Virus record (IMG/VR): IMGVR_UViG_3300045049_000339
Coordinates: 43,717 to 107,716 of that record
Direction: 5' to 3' (one strand)
DNA from: a virus
Length of the DNA: 64,000 nucleotides
How positions within the stretch are numbered: position 1 is the stretch's first letter; each line of letters begins with the position of its first letter. The notes under the pieces are model-generated. The model was not told the origin of the DNA. It saw only the letters and a list, made by a program, of their open reading frames with translations, and did not search any database. Shown in pieces: positions 7,967 through 18,327 of this stretch. A program made the translations under genes and the position numbers.

Positions 7967-8428
7967 GTGCGGAAAATGAACGATCTGATCAACGCCTACT
8001 ACTTCGACTTCCAGGGCACTCTCGTTGACGTGCGCGGAATCCGTCACCTCTTGGAGACCACCCCCAAGCGGTACGACTCGTTCCACTACGCCACGGCAAG
8101 CTGCCCGCCGATCTCGTGGGTGGCGTCCGAGGCCCGCAGGGCGCATGAAGAGGGCTTCGCGGTGCTCCTGGGCACCGGTATGACCGAGCGCTTCCGGCCC
8201 CTGGTGAACTTCTGGCTGGCCAGCCACGAGGTGCATGTGGACGACCTCCAGATGCGCCCCGACGATGACTTCTGCAAGGACTTCATCCTGAAGAACCGCA
8301 TGCTGAGGCGGTGGCAGAACACTCACCGCTTCGTTCACGCGTACGACGACAACCCGGCCGTGATCGAGCACGTCTGGGCAGCAGCGAATATCCCGCACAC
8401 GACCGTGCCGGGATGGGGAGAAGGATAG
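7967..8428 (+). CDS. HAD-family phosphatase resembling the phage PNKP 3'-phosphatase domain
   Basis: YFDFQGTLVDV (motif I variant), LGTG, LQMRPDDD, K, AYDDNP motifs. Confidence 0.75.
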   Translation: MRKMNDLINAYYFDFQGTLVDVRGIRHLLETTPKRYDSFHYATASCPPISWVASEARRAHEEGFAVLLGTGMTERFRPLVNFWLASHEVHVDDLQMRPDDDFCKDFILKNRMLRRWQNTHRFVHAYDDNPAVIEHVWAAANIPHTTVPGWGEG

Positions 8429-9867: not shown

Positions 9868-10620
9868 ATGAAGCTCCACCAGCTCATTGCGAAGCAGGGC
9901 AAGGTCGCCGCACGCGTGACCAACGCCGCCAGCGTCATCCACAAGGCGTCGCAGAAGCCCGCTCTGTTCACGGGCGTCAGCATCACCTACGAGCCGCTGG
10001 CCACCAACGAGAACGACGTCTCCGCGCAGAAGCCGCCGGAGGGCAACTCCGTCCAGCTCTACGCGACCAAGGAGCTGGGCAAGCTCCGCGAGCTGCTCAC
10101 CGAGTTGTACGACGTCAACGCGACGCGCGACTGGTCGAACATGGTCGCCCGTGGCACCGTCAAGGTCGGTGACAAGGTCATCCTCTCGGACGTGCCGGTC
10201 CCGTTCCTGCTGTTCCTCAAGCTGGAGCTGAACCGCCTCCGCACCGAGTTCTCCGCCATCCCGGTCCTGGACCCCTCCAAGGACTGGAAGGTGGACACGG
10301 AGAACGGCGGCTACAAGACCGAGACCACCTGGCAGCACAGCACCCGGCGCGTCAAGAAGGTGCTGGAGCGCTCCCCGGCCACGGACAAGCACCAGGCCGT
10401 GACGGAGGTCTACGAGGAGGAAGTGCCGGTCGCGAGGAAGGAGACCACCAACTTCTCCGGCGCCCTGAGCCGCGTGGACCGCGATGCCCTGATCCGCCAG
10501 GTCGACCTGCTCTTCGACGCCGTCACCGAGGCGGTCGAGGAGGCCAACACGGTCGAGGTCGTGGACATGTCCGTCGGCAAGCCCATCTTCGACTTCCTTC
10601 TGGCCCCGCTGACCCGCTAG
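9868..10620 (+). CDS. Hypothetical protein (helical with long beta-hairpin), linked to a downstream structured RNA
   Basis: 250 aa; very strong codon bias; RBS GAGG; function not recognisable. Confidence 0.9.
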   Translation: MKLHQLIAKQGKVAARVTNAASVIHKASQKPALFTGVSITYEPLATNENDVSAQKPPEGNSVQLYATKELGKLRELLTELYDVNATRDWSNMVARGTVKVGDKVILSDVPVPFLLFLKLELNRLRTEFSAIPVLDPSKDWKVDTENGGYKTETTWQHSTRRVKKVLERSPATDKHQAVTEVYEEEVPVARKETTNFSGALSRVDRDALIRQVDLLFDAVTEAVEEANTVEVVDMSVGKPIFDFLLAPLTR

Positions 10621-10842: not shown

Positions 10843-10989
10843 GTCTCGGCAAGGCGTTGATCGAAGTGCGCTGTCCCATCAGGAGACGTCGGTTCGAATC
10901 CGACTCAGGGGACTACGATCCCTGGTGGTGTAGTGGAAGCATTGCCTGGTTTCTCAAATCAAGGCAGCGCCCACCGTGCAACGTCAGAC
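10843..10989 (+). ncRNA. Rod-shaped RNA capped by a circularly permuted tRNA-like domain
   Basis: T arm 10888-10904, loop-closed acceptor 10905-10925, D arm 10928-10942; nested helices ATCAGG/CCTGGT, GCGCTGTC/GGCAGCGC, GGCGTTG/CAACGTC, GTCT/AGAC. Confidence 0.8.
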
Positions 10990-14923: not shown

Positions 14924-14952
14924 TTGCGCACCGCCGTCGGTGCGCGTAGTGT
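14924..14952 (+). promoter_or_regulatory. Promoter of Y RNA array / TROVE operon
   Basis: TTGCGC-N17-TAGTGT immediately before unit 1. Confidence 0.55.
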
Positions 14953-14954
14953 TC

Positions 14955-15116
14955 TGGGTGTCGGAGGAACCGGGGTAAGGAACACGGTTACTTCATTTGA
15001 CTGGATATCAAAAGGTTGTGGGTTCGAGTCCCACCGGCTCCACTTGTGGGGCTGTAGCTCAATCGGTAGAGAAAACGTGCCCGAGTTCACTTTGATATCG
15101 GTTCCCTCGACACCCA
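14955..15116 (+). ncRNA. YrlA-like Y RNA unit 1 with permuted tRNA domain (anticodon-like loop CT-GGA-TA)
   Basis: Outer stem TGGGTGTCGG..GGAACCG/CGGTTCC..TCGACACCCA; GGGTA, CGGTTACTTC and GATAT motifs; arm order anticodon, T, closed acceptor, D. Confidence 0.85.
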
Positions 15117-15123
15117 CAGACTT

Positions 15124-15279
15124 CCTGTCAGGGGTACAGGCAACGGCTACTTCGCTTCGAAATGCGGGTATCTGTGCAAACAGAGTGCGGGTTCGAATCC
15201 CGTCCGGCTCTTCGCTGAGTCGGTAGACGAATTGGCAAAGTCACCTACGTATCCGATGCCGACTTAGACATCTGACAGG
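15124..15279 (+). ncRNA. YrlA-like Y RNA unit 2 with permuted class II tRNA domain (CGA loop, long variable arm)
   Basis: CCTGTCAG/CTGACAGG outer stem; TCTGT-GCAA-ACAGA variable arm; GCGGG-TTCGAAT-CCCGT; CCGGCTC/GAGTCGG; GAC-GAATTGGCAAA-GTC. Confidence 0.85.
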
Positions 15280-15291
15280 GCTAACTTCATA

Positions 15292-15433
15292 TCTGTCCGG
15301 GGTACAGGCTGCGGTTACTTCACCTGTTAAGTGAGAGGTCGCAGGTTCGAATCCTGTCGTGGGGTGATAAGCCCCATGTAGCTCAGTTTGGGAGAGCGCT
15401 AACGTTCCCGCTGCCGCTTCGATATCGGACAGA
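15292..15433 (+). ncRNA. YrlA-like Y RNA unit 3 with permuted tRNA-Asn-like domain (CT-GTT-AA)
   Basis: TCTGTCCG/CGGACAGA outer stem; TTCAC-CTGTTAA-GTGAG; AGGTC; GCAGG-TTCGAAT-CCTGT; CGTGGGG/CCCCATG; GCTC-AGTTTGGGA-GAGC. Confidence 0.88.
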
Positions 15434-15448
15434 ACACACAAACTTCAT

Positions 15449-15589
15449 AGCTGCCTGGGGTAAAGACAACGGTTACTTCCATGCGGAGGAGGTAGCGCAG
15501 GTTCGAATCCTGCCGGGGGCCTACGGGCTCCTGTCGTCTAGCGGCCCAGGACGCCTACGTTTCCGTTATCGCTTTGATATCAGGCAGCT
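15449..15589 (+). ncRNA. YrlA-like Y RNA unit 4 with permuted tRNA-Glu-like body
   Basis: AGCTGCCTG/CAGGCAGCT outer stem; acceptor CGGGGGC-cTACGg-GCTCCTG; D arm TCGTCTAGCGGCCCAGGAC typical of tRNA-Glu. Confidence 0.85.
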
Positions 15590-15590
15590 T

Positions 15591-15684
15591 GCAGAACCCA
15601 TCACCGGGGTACTGCTCACGGTTACTTCACCCTTCAAAGATGAAAAAACACCGTGAGCGCTCTGAAATCGGTGGTGGGTTCTGC
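15591..15684 (+). ncRNA. Short Y RNA unit 5 lacking the tRNA domain
   Basis: 16-bp outer stem GCAGAACCCATCACCG/CGGTGGTGGGTTCTGC; same GGGTA, CGGTTACTTC and GAAAT frame; GCTCACGG/CCGTGAGC. Confidence 0.8.
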
Positions 15685-15727
15685 TTAATGGCAAGCCCAG
15701 TGCCATCAGGAAAAGGAGGAACAGACG

Positions 15728-17410
15728 ATGGCCAAGTTTAACCAGAAGACCCGTACCTGGGAGAACCAGGGAGGTTCGGCCTTTCCCGCCGCAGGAACGA
15801 AGCGGCAGACCACCACGACCACGAACCACACCGGCCGTGCCGTGTGGAACCTGGACGACAAGACCAACCTGTTCTTCCGCGCCACGTCCGCCTTCGCCGG
15901 TCAGGACACGTACTACGAGAAAGGCGCCAAGCGCGACGCCGAGGCCATCGCCTTGGTCCGAAAGCTCGCTATCGGCGACTGGGACTGGACGGCGAAGTTC
16001 CTCGTCTGGCTGCGCGCCGAGGGCAACATGCGCACCGCGCCGGTCATGCTGGCTGTCGAGGCAGTTCGTGCACGCCTGGAGAAGAAGCTGCACCCGGCTG
16101 CCGGTGAGATGTCTCACCGTGCGCTCATCGCGGCTGTTCTCCAGCGCGCGGATGAGCCGGGCGAGATGCTCGCCTACTACGAGAACGTCGTCGGCCGCAC
16201 CATGCCGAAGGCGATCAAGCGTGGTATCGGTGACGCGGCCAAGCGCATGTACAACGAGCGCAACTTCCTGCGGTACGACAGTTCGTCCAAGGCCATCCGT
16301 TTCGGCGGCGTCGCCGAGATGGCTCAGATGCCGAAGACGCACGGCTGGCAGTCCGACCTGATCACCTACGCCATTGGTGAGCAGCACCACCGTGAGCAGG
16401 ACATCCCTGACACGTTGGCGGCACTTCGTGCACGCAATGAGCTGAACAAGATGGACGCCAGCGACCGTCACGTTTTCGCGAAGAGCGCACTGGGCGGCCA
16501 CATCATCAACCGCACCAAGCTGGACCTGGCCATGGCCGGGCAGTGGGAGTGGTTCATGAGTTGGCTCGGTGATGCGAAGGGTGCCAAGGCCATCACGACG
16601 AAGGAGAAGTGGACGTTCGCCGCCCAGCGCATGGGCATCATGGCGGTCGTCCGCAACCTCCGGAACTTCGACGAGGCCGGTCTCAAGACGGGCGACAGCA
16701 TCGTCACCGAGATCAGTGGTCGGCTCACGAACGAGGAGCAGATCGCGAAGTCCCGCATGTTCCCGTTCCGGTTCTTCACGGCGCACTTGCAGCTCAAGTC
16801 CGTCACGTGGGCGGCCGGTCTGGAGGTGGCGCTTCAGCACTCGCTCCAGAACCTTCCGGAGCTGCCGGGCCGGACGCTGATCCTCGTCGACACCTCGGGG
16901 TCGATGCAGCAGAAGCTCTCGGCCAAGTCCGAGATGTCCTACGCCCAGGCCGCCGCACTGTTCGGCTGTGCCCTGAAGATCAAGAACCCGGACGGGGTCA
17001 ACCTGTGGGGGTTCGCCGACGGGCAGTTCGAGGCGCAGGCCACCACGGGTCACAGCGTTCTGCGCTGTGCCGAGGAGTTCTGCCGCCAGAACGGCCTGGT
17101 CGGTCACGGAACGCAGATGGAGGCGGCCGTCCGTGCCACGTACGCGGGGCACGACCGAGTCATCATCATCTCCGACATGCAGGCGTTCCCGACCGGCGGT
17201 TACAGCCGGTACGGGTACAGCTACATGACCGGTGACGTCGCTGGGGCTGTTCCGGCGCACATCCCGGTATACGGTTTCAACCTGGCCAGCGGCTCCACCA
17301 CACCGCTGGGCAAGGGCAACCGGCACAGCCTTGGTGGCCTCTCGGATGTGACGTTCAAGCTGATCCCTCAGCTTGAGAAGGTCGGCCGGGGTTCGTGGCC
17401 CTGGGAGTAA
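15728..17410 (+). CDS. rsr: TROVE-domain Ro60/Rsr RNA-binding protein with C-terminal vWA domain
   Basis: WLRAEGNMRTAP, LQRADEPGEMLAYY, PKAIKRG, MAVVRNLRNF, SRMFPFRF, ILVDTSGSM (MIDAS), IIISDMQ; AAGGAGG RBS. Confidence 0.95.
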   Translation: MAKFNQKTRTWENQGGSAFPAAGTKRQTTTTTNHTGRAVWNLDDKTNLFFRATSAFAGQDTYYEKGAKRDAEAIALVRKLAIGDWDWTAKFLVWLRAEGNMRTAPVMLAVEAVRARLEKKLHPAAGEMSHRALIAAVLQRADEPGEMLAYYENVVGRTMPKAIKRGIGDAAKRMYNERNFLRYDSSSKAIRFGGVAEMAQMPKTHGWQSDLITYAIGEQHHREQDIPDTLAALRARNELNKMDASDRHVFAKSALGGHIINRTKLDLAMAGQWEWFMSWLGDAKGAKAITTKEKWTFAAQRMGIMAVVRNLRNFDEAGLKTGDSIVTEISGRLTNEEQIAKSRMFPFRFFTAHLQLKSVTWAAGLEVALQHSLQNLPELPGRTLILVDTSGSMQQKLSAKSEMSYAQAAALFGCALKIKNPDGVNLWGFADGQFEAQATTGHSVLRCAEEFCRQNGLVGHGTQMEAAVRATYAGHDRVIIISDMQAFPTGGYSRYGYSYMTGDVAGAVPAHIPVYGFNLASGSTTPLGKGNRHSLGGLSDVTFKLIPQLEKVGRGSWPWE

Positions 17411-17424
17411 TCCCAGAAACACGA

Positions 17425-17460
17425 AAAGAGCCCCCGCCTCGAAAGAGGCGGGGGCTCTTT
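17425..17460. terminator. Bidirectional terminator between convergent arms
   Basis: AAAGAGCCCCCGCCTC-GAAA-GAGGCGGGGGCTCTTT. Confidence 0.9.
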
Positions 17461-17469
17461 GTGCACGAA

Positions 17470-18327
17470 TTACTTGGCTGCGTCCAGCGCGTGACCCATG
17501 GCCTGGAGAATGGCTGGGACCAGGACCGGAGTGAGCTGCGCGGCGATGGCGGCCACCTGCGCGTCGGTCAGCTTCGGCGCGGCGACGGCGCCGACGGCCA
17601 CCTTGATGGCGTCCACCTCCGTCTTCAGCGCCGCCAGCGCGGCAGCGCTCGCCTTGGCGTCGTTGGCGATGTTCTGGACGGTCTGGTGCACGTCCGGCGA
17701 GTCGCCCGGACCCTTGTAGGCCCAGACATCAAGTGGAGTAGGCAAGTCAGTTCCTCCAGAAGAGTTGGAATTCGGGTACTGACCGAAGTCAGCCGTCTCG
17801 GAGTAGTCGACGTCGGCGTTGCCTCCGAAGAGGGTGTTCGCCTCCTGGTGAATGGTGGCGTGGGAATCCCACACGCCGCCGCTCCATGCGACGGTCTGCC
17901 ACAGGTACTTGTACCCGGCGGCAGCGGCTCCGGCAATGACGTGCAGGCCGCCATACACGCCGACGTGGCCCTGTCCGAGGACGTTGGCGGCGCCAGCGAA
18001 ATACTGCTCCACGCTGGCCCAGTCGGTGTCGGTGTCGACAGCGAAATGGATGACAGCGGTGGCGGGAAGACCGACTGCGGCGCGCTGTTCGCTGGCCGTA
18101 CGGGCGTCCGCCTGACCGGCCGCGTAACCGGCCAGGGCGCGTGTCGTGGTGGTCTCCCACACGCCGACGATGGCGAGCCCGGCGGCGATGTACTCCGCGA
18201 CGAGAGCGTGCGTCAGGTTCTTGCTGGGGTCCTCGGAGTAGTACCCGGCCGCCCAGTGCGCACCGGCCGCCTTGGCTTCAGCGGCCGTGGGCTTGGTCCA
18301 GGCGAAGTCAATTCCCATCACCGGCAT
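17470..18327 (-). CDS. Endolysin, DUF1906/GH25-like TIM-barrel glycoside hydrolase
   Basis: GIDFAW, KNLT, VGVWE, IHFAVDTD, VGVYGG, WQTVAWSGG, DVD motifs; C-terminal helical domain. Confidence 0.85.
   Translation of the reverse strand: MPVMGIDFAWTKPTAAEAKAAGAHWAAGYYSEDPSKNLTHALVAEYIAAGLAIVGVWETTTTRALAGYAAGQADARTASEQRAAVGLPATAVIHFAVDTDTDWASVEQYFAGAANVLGQGHVGVYGGLHVIAGAAAAGYKYLWQTVAWSGGVWDSHATIHQEANTLFGGNADVDYSETADFGQYPNSNSSGGTDLPTPLDVWAYKGPGDSPDVHQTVQNIANDAKASAAALAALKTEVDAIKVAVGAVAAPKLTDAQVAAIAAQLTPVLVPAILQAMGHALDAAK

What the first reader, a model, noticed from the sequence alone, without database searches (positions are those of the whole stretch)
14955..17410. Five tandem Y-RNA-like units feeding a phage Ro60 gene: constant frame, variable cargo
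Seen: each unit has a unit-specific perfect outer stem, then GGGTA, an inner stem ending CGG, [T/C]TACTTC, the cargo, an inner 3' strand starting CCG, and GA[T/C/A]AT. Stem sequences differ between units but pairing is retained, giving built-in covariation. Established: Ro60/Rsr binds Y RNAs, and YrlA RNAs carry a permuted tRNA-like module and lie near rsr, including in some mycobacteriophages. Unusual here: a five-member cassette array in one operon, implying one protein loaded with interchangeable RNA modules.
Basis: partly seen in the sequence, partly recalled or inferred. Interest (0 to 1): 0.85.

Follow-up and report, generated by a model that had tools for sequence, protein, structure and literature searches.

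The report
Phage Ro60 operon with five Y RNAs
An uncultured actinobacterial phage transcribes five small Y RNAs, four of them carrying a rearranged tRNA look-alike, ahead of its Ro60 gene; this is a real but ordinary example, because related phages and actinomycetes usually carry 2-6 such RNAs at the same spot.

Summary
Five head-to-tail units lie at 14955-15684 (+). All share the frame: outer stem / GGGTA / inner stem ending CGG / YTACTTC / cargo / CCG... / GAYAT / outer stem. They sit directly upstream of a 560-aa TROVE+vWA (Ro60) gene at 15728-17410, which ends in a strong terminator.

Four units carry a permuted tRNA-like module (T arm, closed 7-bp acceptor hairpin, D arm), which is the YrlA architecture. 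The fifth is a minimal unit.

A covariance model built from the units finds more than 230 relatives beside Ro genes in about 60 IMG/VR phage contigs, 9 cultured actinophages and about 75 actinomycete genomes. Covariation is strong: 93% of cells are paired and 33 of 36 pairs show compensatory changes.

The claim that the array is unusual fails. Arrays of 3-6 units (up to 8-9) are the norm, and four cultured Streptomyces phages also have five.

Extras: the hairpin before the T arm has a full anticodon-arm signature (5 bp, 7-nt loop, U33, R37, A38). The frame motif is locus-specific, which fits a shared partner, Ro. Rfam's YrlA model misses this subfamily.

This scan has already noted Ro-linked RNA arrays in many other phage genomes.

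Verdict: a new member of a known kind, of moderate to low interest.

The parts
14926..14952 (+). Hairpin GCGCACCG-CCGT-CGGTGCGC (14926-14945) after the stop of the upstream ORF, followed by a candidate -10 box TAGTGT (14947-14952).
   Evidence: Read. TAGTGT is conserved at the same position before unit 1 of relative L106, where TTGTAG-N18-TAGTGT forms a plausible promoter. The consensus sigma-70 scan found nothing, so the promoter is an inference.
14955..15116 (+). Unit 1: long Y RNA. It has an 18-bp outer stem (extendable to 14952-15119), the frame, an anticodon-like arm TTTGA/CTGGATA/TCAAA (14996-15012), variable loop AGGTT, a T arm, a 7-bp closed acceptor hairpin and a D arm.
   Evidence: fold z = -3.65; R1 118.7 bits, R2 97.5 bits. 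Its 5' half is miscalled as a tRNA: Rfam tRNA 31.2 bits and ARAGORN 'tRNA-SeC'.
15123..15280 (+). Unit 2: long Y RNA. It has a 9-bp outer stem, CTACTTC, a 5-bp arm with an 8-nt loop, an extra 5-bp GCAA hairpin (class II-like variable arm), a T arm, a 7-bp acceptor hairpin, a D arm and the 3' box GACAT.
   Evidence: (124.1 bits).
15292..15433 (+). Unit 3: long Y RNA. It has an 8-bp outer stem, anticodon-like arm TTCAC/CTGTTAA/GTGAG, variable loop AGGTC, a T arm, a 7-bp acceptor hairpin and a D arm.
   Evidence: (138.3 bits). After in-silico de-permutation ARAGORN reads it as tRNA-Asn(gtt). It gives the best Rfam YrlA hit, 35.2 bits against a gathering score of 69.
15449..15589 (+). Unit 4: long Y RNA. 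It has a 9-bp outer stem, arm CTTCC/ATGCGGA/GGAGG, a T arm, a 7-bp acceptor hairpin and a D arm.
   Evidence: 131.1 bits. After de-permutation ARAGORN reads it as tRNA-Arg(gcg).
15591..15684 (+). Unit 5: minimal Y RNA. It has a 16-bp outer stem, a full frame (GGGTA ... GAAAT), a perfect 8-bp inner stem and a 29-nt A/U-rich loop with a weak hairpin (loop CTTCAAA). It has no T, acceptor or D arm.
   Evidence: fold z = -4.53; 44 bits; 40.5 bits.
15120..15124 (+). Spacer motif ACTTC before unit 2. The same motif, as AACTTCA, recurs before unit 3 (15283-15289) and unit 4 (15441-15447).
   Evidence: Read. The same motif sits at the orthologous spacers of L106. (C)ACAACTTCA occurs in about a third of 76 inter-unit spacers across the family. 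It is a candidate processing signal; this is an inference.
15713..15719 (+). Ribosome-binding site AAGGAGG, 8 nt before the ATG of the Ro gene.
   Evidence: Read.
15728..17410 (+). Ro60/Rsr-like gene (560 aa) with TROVE and vWA domains. The MIDAS-type motif D-T-S-G-S lies at residues 388-392.
17425..17460 (.). Bidirectional intrinsic terminator (16-bp G+C-rich stem) that closes the operon and the convergent gene 17470-18327.

Best explanation
The region is one operon of an actinobacterial phage. A promoter just upstream of unit 1 drives five Y RNAs and then the phage Ro60 (TROVE+vWA) gene, and transcription ends at the terminator at 17425-17460.

The primary transcript is cut in the short spacers into five separate RNAs. 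Each RNA closes on itself through its own terminal stem. Each presents the same conserved internal loop (GGGUA on the 5' strand, GAYAU on the 3' strand, clamped by the outer and inner helices). This loop is the docking site for the phage Ro ring.

The distal end is the effector module. In units 1-4 it is a circularly permuted tRNA look-alike with T arm, closed 7-bp acceptor hairpin, D arm and an anticodon-like arm, which is the YrlA architecture. In unit 5 it is only an A/U-rich loop.

The Ro-bound RNAs would tether or gate Ro and expose tRNA-shaped surfaces to tRNA-handling enzymes such as RNase P, the CCA-adding enzyme, modification enzymes, PNPase and end-healing or ligating enzymes. The likely role is RNA or tRNA quality control and repair during infection.

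Shown here: the sequence architecture, the covariation, the linkage to Ro and the family membership. Inferred: transcription as one unit, processing, Ro binding at the frame, and the physiological role.
For: - Frame: five exact matches against 0.11 expected, and none elsewhere in the genome.
- Structure: 93.1% of cells are paired over 107 family members against 63.1% in shuffles. 33 of 36 pairs show compensatory changes. The covariation score is 0.70, against 0.18 shuffled and below 0.1 slid.
- Linkage: R1 and R2 hits lie on the Ro strand, mostly within 1 kb upstream of Ro, in IMG/VR phage contigs, cultured Streptomyces/Gordonia/Arthrobacter phages and actinomycete chromosomes.
- Frame as shared docking site: identity of the motif columns is 0.83 within a locus against 0.625 between loci, whereas the outer stems show no within-locus excess (0.42 against 0.41). 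The window (GGGGUA) and its closest relative L106 (GGUGUA) share a variant of the family consensus GGUGCG, together with a matching change in the 3' box.
- YrlA features: T arm, acceptor hairpin and D arm in permuted order, plus the conserved YUAY (UUAC/CUAC). The Levitt 15-48 pair covaries among the four long units (A15/U48 in U1 and U2; G15/C48 in U3 and U4). There are sub-threshold Rfam YrlA hits to four units, the best with E = 9e-6.
- Ro protein.
- Operon: no + strand terminator lies between the array and Ro, and a strong terminator follows Ro.
- Precedent: Y RNAs encoded beside and co-regulated with rsr; M. smegmatis YrlA with a 7-bp acceptor stem is cut by RNase P and receives CCA (PMC4201824); phage phiLo Ro60 binds two upstream Y-like RNAs and PNPase (PMC12135203).
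Against: - There are no expression, processing or binding data for this phage.
- The published GNCGAA(N0-1)G Ro-site motif is absent from the array.
- All units score below Rfam's YrlA gathering threshold.
- No consensus promoter was detected.
- The genome has no RtcB or PF09414-type RNA ligase, so a repair role would need host enzymes.
Confidence: 0.85

Rival explanations
1. Anti-defence decoys or sensors. This reading does not exclude Ro binding. Each unit would display a different tRNA body and anticodon-like loop, so that host tRNA-cleaving defence nucleases are soaked up or inhibited. Alternatively, the damage would be sensed and routed by Ro to decay or repair.
For: - The hairpin before the T arm has an anticodon-arm signature across the family. 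49 of 95 phage-set units and 49 of 99 bacterial-set units have a perfect 5-bp stem with a 7-nt loop, against about 6-7 in shuffles. U is at loop position 2 in 60/67 and 62/76 units, and A at position 7 in 60/67 and 61/76. The middle triplets are diverse.
- After de-permutation, 83 of 107 units are read as tRNAs.
- Units within one array carry different triplets.
- A PNKP-type end-healing phosphatase gene lies at 7967-8425. An RNA ligase gene sits between the array and Ro in phage Kela.
- Hughes et al. 2020 (PMC7790460) raised YrlA as a possible competitive inhibitor of an anticodon nuclease.
Against: - The evidence is purely comparative.
- The same arrays occur in bacterial chromosomes, so the feature is not phage-specific.
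- Several loops are degenerate: 8 nt in U2 and U at position 37 in U1.
- The lack of overlap with the phage's 8 tRNA anticodons is expected by chance.
- Salmonella YrlA was not cleaved by the SOS-induced nuclease (PMC7790460).
Confidence: 0.2
2. Permuted or split tRNA genes. RNase P opens the acceptor hairpin and CCA is added. This yields two-piece tRNAs held together by the Y stem, which are aminoacylated and used in translation.
For: - All four long units have exactly 7-bp acceptor hairpins. This is the feature that lets RNase P cut M. smegmatis YrlA, with CCA added in vivo (PMC4201824).
- All four tRNA arms are present.
- Permuted tRNA genes exist in algae and archaea (discussed in bioRxiv 10.1101/312249).
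Against: - An extra, long, conserved helix would remain attached between the D and anticodon arms.
- Anticodon loops are irregular in U1 and U2, and in about a third of the family.
- The frame is conserved like a protein-binding site and travels with Ro, not with translation genes.
- No bacterial splicing machinery is known for such a junction.
Confidence: 0.05
3. A structured 5' leader that only regulates Ro expression in cis, for example by autoregulatory Ro binding, and never releases stable RNAs.
For: - The array and Ro appear co-transcribed.
- The last unit ends 43 nt before the ATG.
Against: - In phage Atuin the units lie downstream of Ro.
- In Kela another gene separates the array from Ro.
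- Homologous RNAs in M. smegmatis and Salmonella are stable, Ro-bound species (PMC4201824).
- tRNA-like modules are not needed for a leader.
Confidence: 0.04
4. Decayed tandem tRNA genes or a chance repeat with no function.
For: tRNA finders call parts of the units as tRNAs. Real tRNA genes cluster nearby at 5.8-11.2 kb.
Against: - The frame is exact in five copies.
- Compensatory changes occur in every helix across more than 100 relatives.
- Position next to Ro is conserved in more than 140 loci.
Confidence: 0.01

Closest known systems
YrlA/YrlB Y RNAs with Rsr (bacterial Ro60): Salmonella, Mycobacterium smegmatis, mycobacteriophages (Chen et al. 2014, PMC4201824; Wang et al. 2018, bioRxiv 10.1101/312249; Rfam RF02553)
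   Same: - Encoded on the Ro strand within 1 kb of the gene.
- A long stem formed by the 5' and 3' ends carries a conserved loop.
- The distal module has T arm, closed acceptor hairpin and D arm in permuted order.
- The YUAY motif, Levitt-pair covariation and tRNA elbow residues are present.
- The acceptor stem is 7 bp, as in M. smegmatis YrlA.
- A shorter companion RNA is present.
   Different: - All units fall below Rfam's gathering score (35 bits or less against 69). So do the bacterial relatives tested.
- The 5' motif is GGGGUA (family consensus GGUGCG[C/A]AG) rather than GNCGAA(N0-1)G.
- The hairpin described as a variable arm looks like a full anticodon arm followed by a normal 4-5-nt variable loop.
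- Unit 5 lacks the T arm reported for YrlB.
- There are five copies rather than the one or two studied experimentally.
Thermus phage phiLo Ro60 with Yrl1/Yrl2 (PMC12135203)
   Same: A phage Ro60 with Y-like RNAs directly upstream of the gene. The protein is the best PDB sequence match (9KOP, E = 2.5e-22).
   Different: phiLo has two RNAs defined by a CGAA motif, with no tRNA-like module described. Here there are five, four of them with tRNA-like modules, and no CGAA.
Deinococcus radiodurans Yrn1/Yrn2 and the RYPER complex (Ro-Y RNA-PNPase)
   Same: Several small RNAs are encoded upstream of rsr on the same strand. The design is modular, with a Ro-binding stem and an effector module.
   Different: Yrn1 has a different arm order and a metazoan-like Ro site. 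PNPase tethering is untested here.
Ro-linked multi-RNA arrays noted earlier in this scan in crAss-like, freshwater and mycobacteriophages (e1-5790182, e1-5645188, e1-5795500)
   Same: Tandem small RNAs with one shared 'handle' and varied tRNA-like pieces lie beside a Ro60-like gene.
   Different: Those arrays accompany very divergent Ro-like/DUF2828 proteins and other handles. This one is a canonical TROVE+vWA Ro with YrlA-type units. The notes are unchecked AI notes.

Membership tests
YrlA-type Y RNA (as defined by Chen et al. 2014) | Encoded within 4 kb of a Ro60/TROVE gene, on the same strand. | tested here: met
   The units lie at 14955-15684 (+) and Ro at 15728-17410 (+).
YrlA-type Y RNA (as defined by Chen et al. 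2014) | Permuted tRNA-like module: T stem-loop, then a closed 'acceptor' hairpin, then a D stem-loop, with conserved elbow residues. | tested here: met
   U1-U4 have GGTTCGA(A/G)T T loops, 7-bp hairpins and TA + GCTC..GAGC-type D arms. U5 lacks the module.
YrlA-type Y RNA (as defined by Chen et al. 2014) | Conserved YUAY before the variable region, and a covarying Levitt 15-48 pair. | tested here: met
   UUAC or CUAC is present in all five units. A15/U48 occurs in U1 and U2, and G15/C48 in U3 and U4.
YrlA-type Y RNA (as defined by Chen et al. 2014) | 5' motif GNCGAA(N0-1)G, the proposed Rsr contact. | tested here: not met
   No G.CGAA occurs in the array. The position is occupied by GGGGUA[C/A][A/G]G. 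The family consensus GGUGCG[C/A]AG shares only the CG(A/C)AG core.
Rfam RF02553 (YrlA) | Score at or above the gathering threshold of 69 bits. | tested here: not met
   The units score 35.2, 28.1, 20.4 and 16.7 bits. No YrlA hit reaches the gathering score in 12 related loci, bacterial ones included.
Y RNA (general) | Bound and stabilised by Ro60. | not testable with these tools
   Only indirect support: strict co-location with Ro and locus-specific conservation of the frame.
Ro60/Rsr protein | TROVE (HEAT-repeat ring) domain followed by a vWA domain with a MIDAS motif. | tested here: met
   Pfam TROVE scores 42.6 bits (cut-off 23) but covers residues 300-353 only. VWA_2 scores 20.2 bits, below its cut-off. 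PHROG 850 matches residues 17-550 at 8e-43. PDB 9KOP, 1YVP and 9NEN match by sequence. D388-T-S-G-S392 is invariant in alignment A3. The ring fold was not modelled.
Genuine tRNA gene | Collinear acceptor-D-anticodon-T-acceptor order with an open 3' end. | tested here: not met
   The order is permuted and the acceptor is closed by a loop. ARAGORN of 107 units in native order against 83 of 107 after de-permutation.

The most novel reading that the evidence does not exclude
The 'variable arm' of actinobacterial and actinophage YrlA RNAs would in fact be a maintained anticodon arm. Each Ro-docked unit would then be a complete tRNA look-alike with its own anticodon-like loop. Phage arrays of such units would serve as a panel of decoys or sensors against tRNA-cleaving host defences. 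[quoted passage not shown]
Probability: 0.15. Interest if true: 0.8.

Novelty: new member of a known kind. Interest (0 to 1): 0.35.

Why it matters
The locus adds a clean, well-delimited phage example to the Ro60/Y RNA system. Its practical value lies in three points.

1. Rfam's YrlA model does not detect this large actinobacterial and actinophage subfamily. Phage annotation pipelines therefore leave the units unannotated or call their 5' halves tRNA genes.

2. Multi-unit arrays are the rule. Any functional model of bacterial and phage Ro must explain several different tRNA-shaped partners for one protein.

3. The frame varies by locus while the stems vary freely. This marks the likely Ro contact surface for mutagenesis.

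The anticodon-arm signature, if functional, would link Ro/Y RNA particles to conflicts over tRNA cleavage.

Tried and rejected
- Megablast of the locus against cultured phages gave no match.
- An exact-pattern scan of IMG/VR with the 5' frame returned about 100 single, apparently chance hits. Only one (L062, the same contig as L106) lay beside a Ro gene, so the pattern is too lineage-specific for surveys.
- The Rfam gathering search found only tRNAs.
- The sigma-70 scan found no promoter.
- RtcB and RNA-ligase (PF09414) searches of the phage genome were negative.
- The supplementary tables of Chen 2014, which list copies per genome, and the Sim/Wolin and Boccitto/Wolin reviews are not held. 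The largest published array size could therefore not be checked.
- L109 has a frameshifted Ro homologue with no units upstream of it; it was left out of the protein alignment and the unit counts.
- I tried to read the 5' bulge and the 3' box as a simple helix. They do not pair canonically, so the loop geometry is left open.
- The absence of overlap between unit 'anticodons' and the phage's eight tRNAs was considered as evidence for complementarity. I rejected it because that result is likely by chance.
Full report
**Source.** The window is part of a 107.7-kb IMG/VR virus record. CheckV rates it 99% complete, its G+C is 63.3%, and the window spans C1:43717-107716. It has no near match among cultured phages.

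**Observation.** Region 14955-15684 (+) holds five head-to-tail units.
- The frame pattern GGGTA-N7-CGG-YTACTTC matches exactly five times, against 0.11 expected, and nowhere else in the genome.
- A script placed the 3' boxes and terminal stems. U1 is 14955-15116, with an 18-21-bp stem and 1-2 mismatches. U2 is 15123-15280 (9 bp). U3 is 15292-15433 (8 bp). U4 is 15449-15589 (9 bp). U5 is 15591-15684 (16 bp).
- Each unit reads: outer stem, GGGTA, two bases, an 8-bp inner stem ending CGG, T/C-TACTTC, cargo, CCG-led inner 3' strand, about five bases, GA(T/C/A)AT, outer 3' strand.
U1's outer stem and the inner stems of U1-U4 each carry a mismatch.

**The gene.** ORF 15728-17410 encodes a 560-aa protein.
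- It matches Pfam TROVE, with a weak VWA_2 match, and PHROG 850 over residues 17-550.
- It is 33-39% identical to 'Ro-like RNA binding protein' of Streptomyces, Gordonia and Arthrobacter phages.
- By sequence it matches Thermus phage Ro60 (9KOP) and Xenopus and human Ro60.
- The MIDAS-type D-T-S-G-S motif is conserved.
- A ribosome-binding site precedes the ATG. No + strand terminator separates the array from the gene, and a 16-bp terminator follows it.
- A -10-like TAGTGT sits just before unit 1, here and in the closest relative. The promoter is inferred, not shown.

**What the units are.**
- Units 1-4 contain a T arm (GGTTCGA-type loop), then a closed 7-bp hairpin, then TA and a D arm. This is the permuted tRNA-like module that defines YrlA RNAs (PMC4201824; bioRxiv 10.1101/312249).
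- The conserved YUAY is present as UUAC or CUAC.
- The Levitt 15-48 pair covaries among the four units.
- Rfam's YrlA model hits four units, but only at 17-35 bits against a gathering score of 69.
- Unit 5 keeps the whole frame but carries only a 29-nt A/U-rich loop.

**Family and covariation.**
- A relative with 61% identical Ro (L106) has four units: three long and one short, with GTGTA in place of GGGTA.
- RNAalifold on seven long units gave 36 pairs, 23 of them with compensatory changes.
- Model R1, built from these units, found 107 units in 60 loci. On that alignment 93.1% of cells pair, against 63.1% in shuffles and 35-46% when the partners are slid. 33 of 36 pairs show double changes. 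The covariation score is 0.70, against 0.18 in shuffles.
- The alignment is model-fitted, which favours the structure, but the margin is large.

**Is a five-unit array unusual? No.**
- Model R2 found full-length units beside Ro in nearly all related loci. Counts are 8 in L152; 6 in L142, L161/L172, L135 and L123; and 5 in L132, L146, L151, L177 and L138.
- Cultured Streptomyces phage GiJojo has 5 (L110 1793-2411). BRock, pSt2308 and Alone3 each have 4 R2 hits; by TACTTC count these three and GiJojo have 5 each.
- Eighty actinomycete genome loci encode Ro proteins 38-45% identical to the query (Nonomuraea, Streptosporangium, Planomonospora, Kitasatospora, Streptomyces). The 74 of them searched with R2 carry 2-5 units directly upstream.
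- A simple proxy counts TACTTC in the 1.7 kb upstream. It gives a median of 3 in both viral (n = 58) and bacterial (n = 75) sets. Ten viral loci, 5 bacterial loci and 4 of 9 cultured phages have 5 or more, while the opposite strand scores about 0.
- The window is therefore in the upper fifth of an ordinary distribution.
- The literature already reports several Y RNAs per Ro: 355 YrlA candidates in 276 genomes, four small RNAs upstream of Deinococcus rsr, and two in phage phiLo (PMC4201824, PMC12135203).
- Earlier notes of this scan report Ro-linked arrays of 3-11 RNAs in many other phages.

**The frame as docking site (inference).**
- The family consensus of the 5' bulge is GGUGCG[C/A]AG, and of the 3' box YUUGAUCUC.
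- All five window units have GGGGUA with GAYAUC, and L106 has GGUGUA. Other loci have their own variants. In L135, for example, all four units read GGUGCC with CAAYCUC.
- Motif columns are 83% identical within a locus and 62.5% between loci. Outer stems show no such excess, at 42% against 41%.
- This pattern fits one locus-specific partner reading every unit, most simply the adjacent Ro.
- The published GNCGAA(N0-1)G motif is not present.

**The cargo.** Other first-stage notes on this stretch suggested anticodon arms, and I tested this.
- The segment between TAC and the T stem is mostly 21-23 nt.
- In 49 of 95 phage-set units and 49 of 99 bacterial-set units it forms a perfect 5-bp stem with a 7-nt loop, against about 6-7 in shuffles.
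- U is at loop position 2 in 60/67 (phage set) and 62/76 (bacterial set) units, and A at position 7 in 60/67 and 61/76. Position 6 is a purine in 59/67 and 63/76, and position 1 a pyrimidine in 53/67 and 64/76. The middle triplets are diverse.
- A 4-5-nt tail such as AGGUC follows the arm.
- The acceptor loop can be cut and the Y stem excised in silico. ARAGORN then reads 83 of 107 units as tRNAs, against 19 in native order. Window U3 becomes Asn(gtt) and U4 becomes Arg(gcg).
- U2 has an 8-nt loop plus an extra GCAA hairpin, like a class II tRNA. U1 has U at position 37.
- Published work calls this hairpin a long variable loop and derives YrlA from dimeric tRNA transcripts (bioRxiv 10.1101/312249). 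That model would predict a leftover anticodon arm.
- Whether the signature is maintained for function is open.

**Mechanism.** The most likely mechanism is an operon transcript processed into five Ro-bound Y RNAs.
- A spacer motif, (C)ACAACUUCA, recurs in about a third of family spacers and before units 2-4 here. It is a candidate processing signal.
- The function is probably RNA or tRNA surveillance or repair during infection.
- Supporting context is a PNKP-type phosphatase gene at 7967-8425 among the phage tRNA genes, and an RNA ligase gene beside Ro in phage Kela.
- The phage itself has no RtcB or PF09414 ligase.
- A decoy role against anticodon nucleases is a live, non-exclusive alternative, raised for YrlA in PMC7790460.

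**Verdict.** The feature is real and the family assignment is correct. The claim of exceptional array size is not upheld. It is a new member of a known kind, with three useful side results: Rfam's model misses the subfamily, the frame is locus-specific, and the hairpin carries an anticodon-arm signature.

Noticed in passing
window 10888-10942 (+), downstream of ORF 9868-10617: A second, frame-less permuted tRNA-like element: T arm GTCGG/TTCGAAT/CCGAC, a closed hairpin, then a D-arm-like stretch. It lies about 270 nt after a DUF7873 gene (Pfam 1.5e-67). It matches R2 only over model positions 50-105, at 25 bits.
   Followed up: partly
window 7967-8425 (+): A 153-aa ORF among the phage tRNA genes matches the PNKP phosphatase domain (Pfam 6.7e-6, just below the cut-off) and PHROG 415 'polynucleotide kinase' (1.3e-23). 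It is a candidate RNA end-healing enzyme.
   Followed up: partly
window 14966-15043: ARAGORN's 'tRNA-SeC(tca)' and the Rfam tRNA hit (31.2 bits) are artefacts. They read the 5' half of Y RNA unit 1 as a tRNA.
   Followed up: yes
L110 2269-2343 (GiJojo), L115 2274-2347 (Alone3), L116 2096-2167 (VanLee): Features annotated tRNA-Arg(cct), tRNA-Ser(gct) and tRNA-Arg(tct) in GenBank records lie inside full-length Y RNA units (R2 75-116 bits). They are probably misannotated. The other units of these arrays are unannotated.
   Followed up: partly
L117 4282-4714 (Arthrobacter phage Atuin): Here three tandem units lie downstream of the Ro gene, in a gap between annotated tRNA genes, rather than upstream.
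   Followed up: no
L118 1215-1537 and CDS 1618-2370 (Streptomyces phage Kela): An annotated RNA ligase gene sits between two Y RNA units and the Ro gene. This links the system to RNA repair in that phage.
   Followed up: no
L152 1084-2798: Genuine tRNA genes (Rfam 47-64 bits at 1084, 1242, 1712 and 2078) are interleaved with Y RNA units (1160, 1319, 1918, 2151 and following). This fits an origin of the units from tRNA gene clusters.
   Followed up: no
L109 2626-4801: The Ro homologue of this contig is split between two reading frames (frameshift or sequencing error). R2 finds no unit upstream of it.
   Followed up: no
inter-unit spacers, e.g. window 15283-15289 and 15441-15447; L107 2653-2668; L127 2673-2689; L203 2632-2649: A conserved single-stranded spacer motif, (C)ACAACTTCA, with a modal spacer length of 16-17 nt, recurs between units in phage and bacterial arrays. 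Its function is unknown, possibly a processing site. ACTTC also forms part of the invariant TACTTC inside each unit.
   Followed up: partly
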